Shown here piece after piece: positions 3,329 through 49,308 of a stretch of DNA of 64,000 nucleotides. The stretch covers positions 153,731-217,730 of the forward strand of contig NZ_JBIITF010000004.1 of assembly GCF_044340635.1 (NCBI RefSeq), read 5' to 3'. The DNA comes from Microbacterium sp. Its GTDB lineage: Bacteria > Actinomycetota > Actinomycetes > Actinomycetales > Microbacteriaceae. The notes below the pieces were generated by a model, which was not told where the DNA came from, made no database searches, and was given only the letters and a program-made list of their open reading frames with translations. A program made the translations under genes and the position numbers. The stretch's first letter is position 1. Each line of letters starts with the position of its first letter.

Positions 3329-6300
3329 ATGCCCGCGCCCGTCCCCGTGATCTCGTTCCCGCCGGAGCTGCCCGTCAGCGCCGCCCGGGAAGAGATCGCG
3401 CGCGCCATCGAGGGCAACCAGGTCGTGATCGTCGCCGGTGCCACCGGGTCGGGCAAGACGACGCAGTTGCCGAAGATCTGCCTCGAACTCGGCCGCACCC
3501 GCATCGCCCACACGCAGCCGCGGCGGCTCGCGGCGCGGACGATCGCCGAGCGCATCGCCGAAGAGCTCGAGGTGCCCCTCGGCACCCTCGTCGGATACAA
3601 GGTGCGGTTCACCGACAACGTGTCCGACCAGACCCTCGTCGCGCTGATGACCGACGGCATCCTGCTGAACGAGATCCACCGCGACCGGTTGCTGCGCCGC
3701 TACGACACCATCATCATCGACGAGGCTCACGAGCGCAGCCTCAACATCGACTTCCTGCTGGGGTACCTGACGCGGATCCTGCCGGAGCGCCCCGACCTCA
3801 AGATCATCGTCACGTCGGCGACCATCGACCCGCAGAGTTTCGCCGCGCACTTCGCGGATGCCGCGGGCACACCTGCCCCGATCGTCGAGGTGTCGGGGCG
3901 GACGTTCCCCGTCGACATCCGGTACCGCCCTTTGGTGGGCGAGGCGGACATCCCGAAGGATCGATCGGGCCGAGCGGGCGCGGAACGGGCCGACGAGGCG
4001 ACGTCAGCCCCATCGCACCTCCGAGATGTTCGGGGCGGGGAGGTCCCTTCGACAAGCTCAGGGACCGAACACGGCTCACCCACGGTCCCTGAGCCTGTCG
4101 AAGGAACCAGCCGCGCCCCGGTCGACGAGCGTGCGTACGACGTCGACGTCGACGAGGTCGCCGGGATCGTCGCGGCGCTGCGCGAACTCGACCGCGAGGC
4201 ACCGGGCGACGTGCTGGTGTTCCTGCCGGGCGAGGCCGAGATCCGAGATGCCGCCGATGCCGTCCGGGGCGCCTACGCGCAGGGCGCGGCCCCCACCGAG
4301 GTACTCCCGCTGTTCGGACGGCTGTCATCGGCAGACCAGCACCGCGTCTTCGAGCCCTCGCGGGTCGCGGGCGTGCGGCGCCGGGTGGTGCTGGCGACCA
4401 ACGTCGCCGAGACGAGCCTCACGGTGCCCGGCATCCGTTACGTGATCGACGTCGGCACGGCCCGAATGTCGCGCTACAGCAATCGCGCGAAGGTGCAGCG
4501 GCTGCCGATCGAGGCCGTGTCGCAGGCGTCGGCGCAGCAGCGTTCCGGCCGCGCCGGACGTACGAGCCCCGGCATCGCAATCCGCCTGTACGCCGCGGAC
4601 GACTTCGCCAAGCGCCCCGAGTTCACCGAACCCGAGATCCTCCGCACGAGCCTGGCCTCGGTCATCCTGCAGATGCTCTCGCTCGGCTTCGGCGACATCG
4701 AGGCCTTCCCGTTCCTCACCCCGCCGGACTCCCGCGGCGTCAAGGCCGCACTCGACTTGCTCGGCGAGCTCGGCGCCGTGGAACCCGGGCGAGGCGCCCC
4801 GCGCCTCACGCGCATCGGGCGCGACATCGCGCGGATGCCGATCGACCCCCGCTTCGCCCGCATGCTGATCGAGGCGCAGCGCACCGGCGCCATTCACGAG
4901 GTCCTGCCGATCGTCGCGGGCATGTCCATCCAGGATGTCCGCGAGCGCCCCGAAGAGCGCCGCGAAGAGGCAGACCGGTTGCACGCGCGCTTCGCCGATC
5001 CGACGAGCGACTTCCTCGCGCTGCTCAACCTCTGGAATCACCTGCAGGAGGCGCAGCGCGAGAACGGATCGAGCGCGTTCCGGCGCCTGTGCCGCGCCGA
5101 GCACCTCAACTATGTCCGCGTGCGGGAGTGGTTCGACGTGCACCGGCAGATCCGCAGCCTCGTCCCCGCGCAGAAGCGCCCGCGCGAGGGTGCCCGTTCC
5201 GACCGCGCCGGTTCCACCGCCGACGAGCAGGCCCTCGACCCCGCCGCGATCCACCGCGCGATCCTCGCGGGTCTGCTCTCACACATCGGCCTGATCGACG
5301 AGCGCGCCGCGCAGAAGGGCGCCGCCCCAGCCCGCCCCGCACCGGCCTCGGAGTATCTCGGAGCCCGAGGCATCCGATTCGCCATCTTCCCCGGCTCGGG
5401 GCTCCGCAAGGCCCGACCGAAGGCGGTCATGGCCGCCGAGCTGGTCGAGACCTCACGTCTCTACGCCCGCACGGTCGCCGCGATCGATCCCGCCTGGGCC
5501 GAGCCCCTCGCGGGTGATCTGGCGAAGCGCCAGGTCAGCGAGCCGCACTGGTCGAAGGATGCCGGGGCCGCCGTCGCGTTCGAGAAGGTCACGCTCTTCG
5601 GGGTCGAGATCATCCCCCGCCGTCGGGTGCAGTTCGCTCGCATCGACCGCGCTGGCGCACGGGAGCTCTTCGTCCGCCACGCCCTGGTCGAGGGCGAATG
5701 GGATCCGTCGACGATCGACAAGCGCCTGACGAGTTTCGCGCGCGCGAACGACGAGCTGCGCCGCCGCCTCGAGCGGGTCGAAGAGCGCGAGCGTCGGCGC
5801 GACATCCTCGCCGGCGACGAGGCCGTTTTCGCGTTCTACGACGCGCGCATTCCGCGGGAGGTCTTCGACGTCCGGTCCTTCGAGAACTGGTGGCGTGAGG
5901 CATCCGCTCACACGCCCAAACTTCTCACGATGCGCGAGCAGGATCTGCTCGAGGGCGAGGCGCGATCGGATGCGGCGGACTTCCCGACCCGTTGGACCCA
6001 GGGCGATCAGACCCTCACCCTCGCCTACCGGTTCGAGCCGGGTGCACCCGATGACGGGGTCGCGGTGATCGTGCCCCTGGCGCTCCTCGCGAGCGTCCGC
6101 CCGGATGGCTTCGACTGGCAGGTTCCCGGGCTGCGACCGGATCTCGTGACGGCGCTGCTGCGAGCGCTGCCGAAGTCCATCCGGCGACACGTCGTGCCCG
6201 CGGCGGACTGGGCCGCAAGATTCGCCGAAGACCTGGCCGGCGCCGGCCCCGAGAACCACGCGGGTCTTCCCCCGACGTCTCTCGCCACGGCGCTGGCGAA

Positions 6301-38222: not shown

Positions 38223-38312
38223 GCGAACATCTCGAAGGGACGATCCGCGATTTTCGCCCGGATTCGTGCTGATTCGGGCCTCAAACGCGTGTGGCACCTC
38301 CGAGATGTCCGC
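38223..38312. repeat. 90-bp hairpin (family A) overlapping the DUF559 gene 3' end
   Basis: GCGAACATCTCGAAGGGA ... GCACCTCCGAGATGTCCGC, plus an inner stem GCCCGGAT/ATTCGGGC. Confidence 0.85.
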
Positions 38313-39159
38313 TTCGGCCCGCGCGCAGCATCCCGGCGATGGCCTCGATGACAACCTCCGGGCGGTACAGAATGTCCTCCGCGGCAGGACGAATCCTGAC
38401 GTACCCGCGCGCGGCGAGCGCGAGATCCCGACGCCTGTCGTCGAGTTGCTTCTGCCATTCCGAGTGGTACGCGCGACTGTCGCACTCGATCACGAGCCAC
38501 CCATCGACGACCATGTCGACCCGCCCGACACCCCGGATTCTCACCTGCAGATCGACACTCCCGCCGAGCGCCCGCACCATGAGACGAACCAGCGTCTCGG
38601 TTCCGGCTTCCGCACGGCCATCGATGTGTTGCCGGATCTCACGACGCCTGGCGGGGATCACGGCGAACATCTCGTCGAGTTCATCGGCCCGCACGATTCC
38701 ACAGTTCAGAGCCGAGTCGATCGAGGCGATGGCCGCGTGCGGTGACTGGCAGATCACGGCTTGCCGGAGCGCGTCGAGCGGCTCGACCACGAGCGCGCGG
38801 GGATGCACGACGCGTAACAACCGCCCCCAATGCCGAACGGTGGCGTCGCCCGGACCGCGGATCGCCCCGTTCGTCCGCATGTGCGCATGCACCCCGTGTC
38901 GCTCCTGAACGAAGACATCCCAGAGCTCCAACGCCGACACGCAGCCGACAAGCCCGCCCGCGCGCGCCGCTGTTTTGATCGCCTCGGGTTCGCTCGCTGC
39001 GACGTACACATCGTTCCGCGCACGAACCAACGACCCACTTCTCAGCTCGTGAGAAATCTGGCGACGGCTATGACCCGCCGCCCTCAGGTCGGCGTAAGAG
39101 CGGGAGCGATGGGCGACCCGGACACTGTTCATGGCGACAGGCTGGCGACCCCCGAACAT
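38281..39159 (-). CDS. DUF559/Vsr-like PD-(D/E)XK endonuclease with AbiEi-like N-terminal HTH
   Basis: RAEAGTETLVRL, GRVDMVVDGWLVIECDSRAYH..DRRRDLAL; start uncertain (39159 or 39132). Confidence 0.8.
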   Translation of the reverse strand: MFGGRQPVAMNSVRVAHRSRSYADLRAAGHSRRQISHELRSGSLVRARNDVYVAASEPEAIKTAARAGGLVGCVSALELWDVFVQERHGVHAHMRTNGAIRGPGDATVRHWGRLLRVVHPRALVVEPLDALRQAVICQSPHAAIASIDSALNCGIVRADELDEMFAVIPARRREIRQHIDGRAEAGTETLVRLMVRALGGSVDLQVRIRGVGRVDMVVDGWLVIECDSRAYHSEWQKQLDDRRRDLALAARGYVRIRPAAEDILYRPEVVIEAIAGMLRAGRSGHLGGATRV

Positions 39160-39269
39160 CGACACACGTCGAACCGGTGCAATGGTGGACAGGCCTTCTC
39201 CAGCCCCGGTTGTGGAGGGACAACCGCGAGACACAGCGAGCGCACGCACAGCCGGCGGGGTGACGCGAC

Positions 39270-39359
39270 GCGAGCATCCGAGAGGTGCCGTGGTGCGCAC
39301 GACGTCTGGTGTGCAACAAAAGCCACAAGAACAACGCTTGGTACCTCTCGGGTGTTCGC
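39270..39359. repeat. 90-bp hairpin (family A) upstream of the DUF559 gene
   Basis: GCGAGCATCCGAGAGGTGCC pairs with GGTACCTCTCGGGTGTTCGC, 17/20; all three mismatches are G.T-compatible. Confidence 0.85.
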
Positions 39360-49192: not shown

Positions 49193-49211
49193 CCCGCGCT
49201 CCCGTGCTCCC

Positions 49212-49282
49212 AAAACAGGAGATCCGCCGAAAACAGGACGTTTCGGGCGCAATCGTCCTGTTGCGGGCGACTCTCCTGTTTT
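49212..49282. repeat. Nested hairpin (family D)
   Basis: AAAACAGGAG..AAAACAGGACG-loop-CGTCCTGTT..CTCCTGTTTT between convergent genes. Confidence 0.82.
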
Positions 49283-49308
49283 CGGGCGACTCGGCAACGT
49301 GAGCGAGG

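What the first reader, a model, noticed from the sequence alone, without database searches (positions are those of the whole stretch)
38223..39359. DUF559 nuclease gene bracketed by two 90-bp hairpins: candidate RAYT-like REP-mobilising element
Seen: a lone AbiEi-like HTH + DUF559/Vsr gene with intact RVD..ECD..YH motifs. It has a 90-bp hairpin at each end (38223-38312, containing its stop codon; 39270-39359). The arms share a consensus close to GCGRRCATCYSRGAGGTGCC. A third 90-bp member lies 34 kb away inside hrpA. Arm mismatches in the upstream copy are all G.T-compatible, as expected if a single-stranded fold is selected. Established: REP/REPIN hairpins in Proteobacteria are spread by RAYT HUH transposases encoded between REPs. 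Inference: this is an analogous system in which a PD-(D/E)XK nuclease mobilises or maintains its flanking hairpins.
Basis: partly seen in the sequence, partly recalled or inferred. Interest (0 to 1): 0.87.

Follow-up and report, generated by a model that had tools for sequence, protein, structure and literature searches.

The report
Nuclease gene framed by its palindromes
A gene for a DNA-binding nuclease sits between two copies of a 90-base palindromic repeat that is also scattered through the genome; all eight such nuclease loci here have a palindrome family of their own (seven on both sides), which resembles REP/RAYT repeat systems but uses an unrelated enzyme.

Summary
Window 38223-38312 and 39270-39359 are two 90-nt inverted-repeat elements. 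They bracket an AbiEi-like/Vsr-like (DUF559) nuclease gene at 38281-39132 on the minus strand. A third copy lies in frame in hrpA.

They belong to a family of about 19 copies in this 3.27-Mb Microbacterium genome. Almost every copy is 89-91 nt, most exactly 90. The family is confined to a small clade (M. lacus, M. rhizomatis, BR1 and relatives).

Copies lie at orthologous sites in different species. The 20-bp arms and the total length are conserved, while the 50-nt spacer drifts.

The gene-between-palindromes layout is not chance:
- All 8 DUF559 loci in this genome have their own palindrome family, 7 on both sides.
- 6 of 17 homologue loci from nine other actinobacterial genera pass a strict bracket test, against 3 of 247 control genes.
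- The genome has no RAYT-type transposase.

The arms show no RNA-type covariation and no strand-specific G·T bias. Recognition as duplex DNA by a dimeric protein therefore fits better than a selected single-strand fold.

The nuclease and its palindromes appear to be cognate partners. That the nuclease spreads them is unproven. I found no paper describing this pairing.

The parts
39270..39359 (-). Upstream family-A palindromic element, 90 nt. It has 20-bp inverted arms (GCGAGCATCCGAGAGGTGCC / GGTACCTCTCGGGTGTTCGC) and a 50-nt spacer, and ends 137 nt before the start codon of the nuclease gene.
   Evidence: CM 71.4 bits. Orthologous copies are present in G320 and M. rhizomatis.
39133..39269 (-). 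Leader of 137 nt between the upstream element and the ATG; presumed promoter and 5' UTR of the nuclease gene. No sigma-70 consensus was found.
   Evidence: The same 86-150-nt gap is seen in homologues from other genera.
38281..39132 (-). Gene for a 283-aa protein. Residues ~1-180 form an AbiEi-like two-domain DNA-binding module, and residues ~190-275 form a Vsr-like PD-(D/E)XK nuclease (DUF559 / REase_MTES_1575). The stop codon is 38281-38283.
   Evidence: pLDDT 90.4; 6Y8Q, 3R3P, 3HRL, 1VSR.
38223..38312 (-). Downstream family-A palindromic element, 90 nt, in the same orientation as the upstream copy. It overlaps the last 29 coding bases and the stop codon of the gene.
   Evidence: CM 63.7 bits. 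Orthologous copies are present in G320 and M. rhizomatis.
3944..4033 (+). Solo family-A element inserted in frame (30 codons) in the linker between the two RecA-like domains of HrpA. It is shared with BR1, M. lacus SDZm4 and M. rhizomatis. It is absent from outgroup species G001, G002, G003 and G012; G011 has a different inverted repeat there.
   Evidence: (74.1 bits).

Best explanation
The locus is one cassette of a widespread actinobacterial module. A single gene encodes an AbiEi-type DNA-binding module fused to a Vsr-like nuclease, and it is framed by two copies of a palindromic repeat specific to that gene lineage.

Here the repeat is a 90-bp unit made of two inverted boxes of about 17 bp (core ACATCYSRGAGGW) held about 58 bp apart. 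About 17 further solo copies of the same unit lie in intergenic DNA, and one lies in frame in hrpA.

I propose the following.
1. The protein binds the two inverted boxes as a dimer on duplex DNA. This would explain why box sequence and spacing are conserved while the spacer sequence is not.
2. The upstream copy serves as its operator, and the downstream copy marks the 3' end of the cassette.
3. The nuclease domain nicks or cuts at or near bound elements.
4. Rare repair or copying events started by such cuts seed, correct or delete elements. The protein and its repeat population would then persist together by vertical descent, as RAYTs do with REPINs.

Shown: the cassette architecture, its recurrence and specificity, the dispersal of the repeat, vertical inheritance, and constraint on arms and length.

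Inferred: binding, cleavage, autoregulation and any role in spreading the repeats.
For: 1. The family is real and sharply defined. About 19 copies were found by nhmmer and by covariance model; nearly all are exactly 90 nt and align almost without gaps (one gap column).

2. Specific pairing within this genome. All 8 DUF559-domain loci carry their own palindrome family, 7 on both sides and 1 on one side.
- Family A is described here.
- Families B, C, D and F are shown; families G and H.
- On an unbiased score (minimum of the best 70-110-nt inverted repeat in the two flanks), 4 of the 6 paralogues tested fall in the top 0-3.7% of 297 random genes.

3. Generality. In 17 homologue loci from nine other genera, 6 have related palindromes in both flanks, against 3 of 247 control genes. 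The geometry is constant: the upstream element ends 86-150 nt before the start, and the downstream element begins -31 to +7 nt from the stop. This window fits that pattern.

4. Co-divergence.
- At the conserved family-C locus, the arm sequence changes from species to species along with the gene.
- In M. lacus SDZm4, the family-A bracket copies have variant arms (GCGTAAGTCTGAAAGGAAT), and its hrpA copy carries the matching variant arm.

5. Same narrow distribution.
- Family-A elements occur in only 2 of 301 sampled genomes of the genus, plus a few related species found by the collection scan.
- The family-A-type gene occurs in G000, G320, M. rhizomatis and M. lacus, with a remnant in BR1. Only one weaker match (54%) was found in 300 other genomes of the genus.

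6. Constraint. Orthologous copies keep arms at 80% identity against 56% for spacers, and lengths stay at 89-91 nt. Paralogous copies show arms at 69% and spacers at 41%, against 28% expected at random.

7. Duplex rather than RNA recognition. There is no covariation above shuffles, spacers are unstructured (mean z -0.4), and there is no strand bias in G.T mismatches.

8. Protein.
- The model is confident (pLDDT 90.4).
- The N-terminal part resembles AbiEi/Rv2827c, proteins that bind inverted repeats in their own promoters (PMC7319586).
- The C-terminal part resembles Vsr and the catalytic domain of homing endonuclease I-Bth0305I, a homodimer that footprints about 60 bp (PMC3239194).
- Catalytic residues are invariant.

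9. No Y1/RAYT transposase exists in the genome that could serve these palindromes instead.
Against: - No direct evidence of binding or cleavage exists.
- Element positions are mostly shared between species whose flanks are 86-91% identical, so turnover is slow. I saw no recent insertion with clean boundaries and no target-site duplication.
- BR1 has deleted the family-A gene (a 92-bp remnant remains), and M. rhizomatis apparently has a frameshifted copy (annotated as 171 aa). Yet the covariance model gives 26 and 60 matches in them (both strands counted), roughly 15 and 35 elements, including the best-scoring one. Conservation therefore does not obviously depend on the gene.
- For family A the bracket traces to one ancestral locus, so it counts as a single event. 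The general argument rests on the other families.
- Some families (B, E, F) have few or no solo copies, so dispersal is not an obligatory part of the module.
- 11 of 17 foreign loci failed the strict bracket test.
Confidence: 0.55

Rival explanations
1. Regulation only. The palindromes are operator and terminator sites of an autoregulated AbiEi-type nuclease, for instance a defence or toxin-like gene kept silent by its own DNA-binding domain. Solo copies would be additional binding sites (a small regulon, decoys or insulators) kept by the host. The nuclease would play no part in making or moving them.
For: - AbiEi-family proteins autoregulate through inverted repeats in their promoters (PMC7319586).
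- The upstream element sits at a fixed 86-150 nt before the start.
- Solo copies are old, positionally stable and under constraint on arms and spacing.
- Elements persist where the gene is lost.
- PADLOC gives only a weak AbiEi match.
Against: - This does not explain the second copy overlapping the stop codon at nearly every locus.
- It does not explain solo copies between convergent genes or in frame in hrpA.
- It does not explain lineage-specific gains of discrete 90-nt units.
- It does not explain why an intact, conserved nuclease active site is retained.
Confidence: 0.2
2. Reverse causality, a palindrome-homing gene. The dispersed palindromes are generated and maintained by something else. 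The nuclease is a free-standing homing-endonuclease-like selfish gene whose recognition site is the palindrome. After cutting a solo element, repair from an occupied locus would copy the gene in, leaving a palindrome on each side.
For: - The nuclease domain resembles the I-Bth0305I homing endonuclease (PMC3239194).
- The cassette is framed by two complete elements in direct orientation.
- At one conserved locus the cassette is present, inverted, replaced by another DUF559 type, reduced to two palindromes, or absent in different species.
- The gene evolves much faster than its neighbours: 63-65% identity against 92% for YbaK.
Against: - Each family has one gene copy per genome despite many available solo sites.
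- The family-A cassette stays at the same ybaK-side locus in four species.
- No source for the palindromes is known: no RAYT and no transposase with matching ends.
Confidence: 0.15
3. Structured RNA or generic hairpin. The elements are sRNA genes, terminators or mRNA-stabilising hairpins selected at the RNA level, and their position around the nuclease gene is incidental.
For: Individual copies fold well. Many lie in short intergenic regions.
Against: - No covariation above shuffles, no strand preference (17 of 44 copies fold better on the canonical strand), and no strand-specific wobble bias.
- No constant orientation relative to neighbouring genes.
- No Rfam family matches.
- The bracket recurs at every DUF59... 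DUF559 locus, each with a different sequence.
Confidence: 0.05
4. Chance. Two members of an ordinary dispersed repeat family happen to flank this gene.
For: With about 19 copies among some 3000 intergenic regions, roughly 0.1 genes per genome would be bracketed by chance (my estimate). Elements also tend to occur in pairs or clusters.
Against: Seven other DUF559 loci in the same genome have their own palindrome family, six of them on both sides. The layout is enriched about 30-fold over controls in other genera.
Confidence: 0.02

Closest known systems
REP/REPIN elements with their RAYT genes (REPtrons; Bertels & Rainey, PMC3116915, PMC3337134, bioRxiv 10.1101/2021.07.10.451892)
   Same: - A single-copy, vertically inherited gene is flanked by its own palindromic repeats.
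- The same repeats are dispersed in extragenic space.
- Each gene lineage has its own repeat family.
- Turnover is slow and persistence within a lineage is long.
- The 90-nt unit, two inverted boxes separated by a spacer, is laid out like a REPIN.
   Different: - The enzyme is unrelated: an AbiEi-like DNA binder plus a Vsr-like PD-(D/E)XK nuclease, not a HUH/Y1 transposase. No Y1_Tnp exists in the genome.
- Copy numbers are low, 2-35 per family.
- The spacer is long and its length is fixed.
- There is no sign of a selected single-strand hairpin.
- Whether the elements depend on the enzyme has not been shown.
AbiEi antitoxins of type IV AbiE toxin-antitoxin systems (S. agalactiae AbiEi 6Y8Q; M. 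tuberculosis Rv2827c 1ZEL; PMC7319586)
   Same: The N-terminal ~180 residues have the two-domain AbiEi fold. AbiEi proteins bind inverted repeats in their own promoter and autoregulate.
   Different: There is no AbiEii (DUF1814) toxin gene; the neighbours are a YbaK-type editing protein and a luciferase-like monooxygenase. A nuclease domain is fused instead. The repeats lie on both sides of the gene and elsewhere in the genome.
Vsr endonuclease and DUF559 proteins (1VSR/1CW0, NGO0050 3HRL), and the Vsr-like homing endonuclease I-Bth0305I (3R3P; PMC3239194)
   Same: The C-terminal domain has this fold, and its catalytic D/E-D/H residues are conserved. I-Bth0305I is a homodimer that contacts about 60 bp and cuts a pseudopalindromic site. 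That is a plausible model for recognition of a 90-bp two-box element.
   Different: The gene is not inside an intron or intein and does not interrupt a host gene. No link to T:G mismatch repair or to a cytosine methyltransferase is evident. The target is unknown.
MITEs and their parent insertion sequences
   Same: Short non-coding units with terminal inverted repeats, dispersed in intergenic DNA, and sometimes inserted in frame in genes.
   Different: - No target-site duplication.
- No transposase gene carries these ends.
- Copies are old and positionally conserved, with spacers diverged almost to random while the length stays fixed.

Membership tests
REP/REPIN-RAYT system | The associated gene encodes a HUH/Y1 (IS200/IS605 TnpA-like) transposase. 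| tested here: not met
   Pfam and fold search give AbiEi plus Vsr/DUF559. PF01797 has no match in the whole genome, while the control genomes do match.
REP/REPIN-RAYT system | The gene is flanked by copies of the repeat family that is dispersed in the same genome. | tested here: met
   Family A: two flanking copies plus about 17 solo copies. Family C: two flanking plus 6 solo. Family D: two flanking plus 3 solo.
REP/REPIN-RAYT system | The gene is single-copy and vertically inherited, and each gene lineage has its own repeat family. | tested here: met
   There is one gene per family. The family-A cassette sits at the same ybaK-side locus in four species. Eight loci have eight different palindromes.
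REP/REPIN-RAYT system | Conservation of the repeats depends on a functional enzyme. | tested here: inconclusive
   BR1 (gene deleted) and M. rhizomatis (apparent frameshift) keep many high-scoring elements. The age of these gene losses is unknown.
Vsr-like PD-(D/E)XK nuclease (DUF559 / REase_MTES_1575) | Vsr-type fold of the C-terminal domain. | tested here: met
   Foldseek: 3HRL TM 0.73, 3R3P 0.69-0.71, 1VSR 0.54, probability 0.99-1.0, on a model with pLDDT 90.4.
Vsr-like PD-(D/E)XK nuclease (DUF559 / REase_MTES_1575) | Pfam match above the curated threshold. | tested here: inconclusive
   This protein scores just below threshold: MTES_1575 33.9 against 38.2, DUF559 19.0 against 20.6. The whole-genome scan gives 20.8, over the cut-off. 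Its paralogues and homologues pass.
Vsr-like PD-(D/E)XK nuclease (DUF559 / REase_MTES_1575) | Conserved catalytic acidic and histidine residues. | tested here: met
   D206, E216, D218 and H223 are invariant in 46 sequences.
Vsr-like PD-(D/E)XK nuclease (DUF559 / REase_MTES_1575) | Endonuclease activity on DNA. | not testable with these tools
   Needs a biochemical assay.
AbiE type IV toxin-antitoxin system | AbiEi fold (N-terminal winged helix plus C-terminal domain). | tested here: met
   6Y8Q_A: E 5.3e-5, probability 1.0, 184 aligned columns. Weak AbiEi_3_N and PADLOC AbiEi matches.
AbiE type IV toxin-antitoxin system | An adjacent AbiEii (DUF1814 nucleotidyltransferase) toxin gene. | tested here: not met
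   The gene stands alone between the two elements. The neighbours are tRNA_edit (YbaK-like) and Bac_luciferase proteins.
Homing endonuclease gene | The gene sits within an intron or intein, or interrupts its own target, with occupied and empty alleles that have precise boundaries. | tested here: inconclusive
   There is no intron or intein context. BR1's 'empty' site is a deletion with a gene remnant. At the family-C locus, G319 is empty (179 bp) and G001 keeps two palindromes without the gene. Boundaries are blurred by divergence.
MITE / insertion sequence | Target-site duplications, and a transposase-bearing parent element with the same ends. | tested here: not met
   No direct repeats flank any of 18 copies. 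The only gene framed by these arms is the DUF559 gene.

The most novel reading that the evidence does not exclude
AbiEi-Vsr fusion proteins are a second, non-HUH class of repeat-associated enzymes. Each lineage would recognise a two-box palindrome of its own as duplex DNA. It would use nicking followed by host repair to seed, correct and delete copies, and would co-evolve with that repeat population for long periods. This would be an actinobacterial counterpart of the REPIN-RAYT partnership that arose independently. The elements would also mark boundaries where cassettes invert or are exchanged.
Probability: 0.25. Interest if true: 0.9.

Novelty: new variant of a known kind. Interest (0 to 1): 0.8.

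Why it matters
DUF559/AbiEi-type 'endonuclease domain-containing' genes are among the commonest unexplained genes in Actinobacteria, mycobacteria included. The short palindromic repeats of high-GC genomes have no known source.

If each of these genes is the partner of its own palindrome family, one observation explains both. It would also show that the REPIN-RAYT way of life (a non-jumping enzyme living with a population of short palindromes) evolved at least twice, with unrelated chemistry.

It gives a directly testable hypothesis: a 283-aa protein, a defined 90-bp site, and eight natural protein/site pairs in a single genome for specificity swaps.

It may also yield programmable long-site DNA binders or nickases.

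Practically, these elements break assemblies, insert in frame in proteins such as HrpA, and flank variable gene segments.

Tried and rejected
- **Known RNA family:** none. Rfam at gathering thresholds gives only a tRNA elsewhere in the window. At E<=1, the only hit on the elements is a meaningless plant miRNA-precursor match.
- **Selected RNA or ssDNA fold:** rejected as a family property.
- **LexA/SOS box** (the GAAC...GTTC ends): joining the ends gives GAAC-N6-GTTC rather than N4, and the half-sites are about 72 bp apart. Rejected by inspection.
- **Integron attC:** the ends do not fit GTTRRRY/RYYYAAC, there are no arrays, and copies are dispersed singly. Rejected by inspection; I did not search for an integrase.
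- **MITE:** no target-site duplication and no parent transposase.
- **RAYT dependence:** no Y1_Tnp in the genome.
- **A virgin empty site between ybaK and the monooxygenase gene:** BR1 lacks the cassette but keeps a 92-bp remnant of the gene, so it is a deletion. Outgroups have other neighbours next to ybaK.
- **Clean insertion boundaries for solo copies:** M. rhizomatis against G000 and BR1 against G000 upstream of groES are too diverged, or the site is occupied by a different palindrome.
- **Simple upstream-versus-downstream similarity score:** too insensitive for families whose arms are short. I replaced it with inverted-repeat-based scores.
- **Sequence search of solved structures:** nothing significant.
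- **Literature:** no paper holds both DUF559 and AbiEi. DUF559 with 'repeat' and MTES_1575 gave nothing relevant.
Full report
**1. What is at the locus**

Window 38223-38312 and 39270-39359 are each 90 nt long. Each has 20-nt inverted arms and a 50-nt spacer. Both fold much better than shuffled sequence, and the arm consensus is over-represented in the window (4 matches against 0.43 expected).

Between them, on the minus strand, lies a 283-codon gene (39132 to 38284, stop at 38281-38283).
- The upstream element ends 137 nt before the ATG.
- The downstream element overlaps the last 29 coding bases and the stop codon.
- The neighbours are a YbaK-type tRNA-editing protein and a luciferase-like monooxygenase.

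A third copy (3944-4033) adds exactly 30 codons to the inter-domain linker of HrpA.

**2. The protein**

Pfam gives REase_MTES_1575 and DUF559 just under threshold, plus a weak AbiEi N-terminal match. Homologues are annotated as 'very-short-patch-repair endonuclease', 'DUF559' or 'AbiEi family antitoxin domain-containing'.

An AlphaFold model built on 46 homologues is confident (pLDDT 90.4).
- Residues ~1-180 match the two-domain AbiEi antitoxin (6Y8Q, E 5e-5) and Rv2827c.
- Residues ~190-275 match the DUF559 protein NGO0050, Vsr, and the catalytic domain of the homing endonuclease I-Bth0305I.
- R204-V205-D206, E216-C217-D218 and H223 are invariant.

AbiEi proteins bind inverted repeats in their own promoters (PMC7319586). 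I-Bth0305I is a homodimer that footprints about 60 bp and cuts a pseudopalindrome (PMC3239194).

**3. The repeat family**

The assembly (3.27 Mb, 35 contigs) holds about 19 copies, found by nhmmer and by a covariance model.
- Fifteen copies align with a single gap column, and nearly all are exactly 90 nt.
- The conserved core is ACATC-N4-AGG(W) at positions 5-17 and its inverted partner at positions 74-86.
- Pairwise identity is 69% in the arms and 41% in the spacers (random expectation 28%).
- The spacers show no fold of their own (mean z -0.4).
- Copies are mostly intergenic, have no fixed orientation relative to neighbouring genes, and have no target-site duplications.

The evidence argues against a single-strand fold under selection on one strand.
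- Arm covariation does not exceed shuffles (64 of 500).
- Arm mismatches are not enriched for G.T on either strand (50, 57 and 134).
- The more stable strand varies from copy to copy.

What is conserved is two inverted sequence boxes at a fixed distance. That is what a dimeric duplex-DNA binder would require.

**4. Distribution and age**

- Of 301 sampled genomes of the genus, only this one and one MAG carry the family.
- A scan of 185,579 species genomes adds M. rhizomatis, M. lacus SDZm4, Microbacterium sp. BR1 and three MAGs.
- These genomes give 19-60 covariance-model matches each with both strands counted, roughly 11-35 elements per genome.
- Most foreign copies lie at positions orthologous to copies in this genome; one site is shared by five genomes.
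- Between orthologous copies, arms are 80% identical and spacers 56%, and lengths stay at 89-91 nt.
- Lineage-specific copies also exist.

The elements are therefore old, vertically inherited, slowly turning over, and constrained in arms and length.

**5. Is the bracket meaningful? The family-A locus**

For family A alone the evidence is thin, because the arrangement traces to one ancestral locus.
- It is present next to ybaK in G320 (gene 88% identical), in M. rhizomatis (about 65%, apparently frameshifted) and in M. lacus SDZm4 (63%, with variant arms).
- In BR1 it has been deleted, leaving a 92-bp remnant of the gene.

**6. Is the bracket meaningful? The other DUF559 loci**

Earlier notes of this scan reported similar brackets in other genomes, so I tested the idea independently.

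*Within this genome.* A Pfam DUF559 scan finds eight loci. Seven are framed on both sides by a palindrome family of their own, and the eighth has one on one side.
- The palindromes are 57-99 nt long.
- The two copies at a locus are 1028-1168 bp apart, the same geometry as here.
- On an unbiased inverted-repeat score, four of the six paralogues tested lie in the top 0-3.7% of 297 random genes.
- Families C and D also have solo copies. One family-C copy lies in this window at about 49207-49290.

*Across the class.* In 17 homologue loci from nine other genera, six have related palindromes in both flanks, against 3 of 247 control genes. The upstream copy lies 86-150 nt before the start and the downstream copy overlaps the stop.

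*Alternative enzyme.* The genome has no Y1/RAYT transposase.

**7. Cassette dynamics**

The family-C cassette lies between two genes conserved across the genus.
- In G011 and G003 the gene has the same orientation as here.
- In M. rhizomatis and G002 it is inverted between its palindromes.
- In G001 the gene is gone but two palindromes remain.
- In G319 the site is empty (179 bp).
- In G012, G115 and BR1 the same site is framed by a different palindrome (TGTCCCACTT...). In G012 and G115 the ORF between them is a more distant DUF559-type protein; in BR1 I did not identify the gene.

The arm sequence differs from species to species along with the gene. In M. lacus SDZm4 the family-A bracket copies have variant arms, and its hrpA copy carries the matching variant arm. 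These are signs of co-evolution between protein and palindrome, but they are anecdotal.

**8. Reading**

The nuclease and its palindromes are very probably cognate. The most economical mechanism has these steps.
- The protein binds the two boxes as a dimer on duplex DNA.
- It autoregulates through the upstream copy.
- The nuclease domain cuts at or near bound elements.
- Rare repair events then create, correct or remove copies.

This works like a REPIN-RAYT partnership (PMC3116915; 10.1101/2021.07.10.451892), but it is not a member of that family, because the enzyme class differs.

Two observations count against enzyme-dependent maintenance. Elements persist in BR1 and M. rhizomatis, where the gene is lost or broken, and I found no recent insertion.

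The rivals are: a purely regulatory role; a homing-type gene that targets pre-existing palindromes; an RNA function; and chance. The last two are poorly supported.

**9. Limits**

- There is no biochemistry.
- Element counts in other genomes are lower bounds, because only 150 candidates were scored per genome.
- The M. rhizomatis frameshift could be an assembly error.
- My literature searches cover only the held library.

Noticed in passing
window 4046-4104: A second, unrelated hairpin repeat (core CTGAGCCTGTCGAAGG) lies 12 nt after the family-A copy in the same HrpA linker. It is translated as ...PSTSSGT...VPEPVEG. It is present in this genome but not in BR1 or M. lacus, so this loop of HrpA has taken two different palindromes.
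   Followed up: partly
window 49207-49290: A solo copy of palindrome family C (AAAACAGGAGATCCGCCGAAAACAGG...CCTGTTGCGGGCGACTCTCCTGTTTT). This family frames another DUF559 gene at G000:C14:84968-85768.
   Followed up: partly
G000:C24:32498-38595 (outside the window); L129, L093/L109: Two family-A elements bound a variable segment. It is 6.0 kb in this genome (small membrane proteins, a family-2 glycosyltransferase, a glycoside hydrolase-like protein and a UDP-glucose dehydrogenase-like protein, judged by eye from the translations). It is 1.4 kb in M. lacus SDZm4 and 8.5 kb in BR1. The outer flanks are collinear.
   Followed up: partly
G000:C14:84727-85871 and loci L190-L198: A DUF559 cassette sits at a locus conserved across the genus. 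In different species the gene is inverted between its palindromes, lost with the palindromes retained, absent altogether, or the site holds a cassette with a different palindrome (a distant DUF559-type gene in G012 and G115).
   Followed up: yes
G000:C9:18030-18125 versus L132:3215-3398 (BR1): Upstream of a CIRCE-like operator (CTGGCACTC-N9-GAGTGCCAG) next to the presumed groES, BR1 has a family-A element. This genome has a different palindrome there (ACTCGGTCGATTCGGGC...GCCCGAATCGACCGAGT), which resembles family D.
   Followed up: no
L149 / G011 hrpA linker: In another Microbacterium species the same HrpA linker position holds a different inverted repeat (GGACCGGGCTCCGGAGGA ... TCCGGAGCCCGG). 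This suggests repeated independent insertions at this spot.
   Followed up: no
G000:C28:33321-33380 (L159:622-681): Three tandem copies of a 19-nt unit (GCTCACGCCAGGTGCAGCCGCT, overlapping) lie at the 3' end of a DUF559 paralogue that has a palindrome on its upstream side only.
   Followed up: no
L132:6648-7003 (BR1) versus G000:C9:21549-22493: BR1 keeps only the N-terminal third of the family-F DUF559 gene; the nuclease domain and the downstream palindrome are deleted. BR1 has thus lost or truncated at least two of these cassettes.
   Followed up: partly
window 38281-39132: This gene failed my GC3 filter for coding ORFs (GC3 >0.80 with GC3>GC1>GC2), which its neighbours pass at 0.83-0.88. It also diverges much faster than they do: 63-65% protein identity to M. 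lacus and M. rhizomatis, against 92% for the adjacent YbaK in M. lacus.
   Followed up: partly
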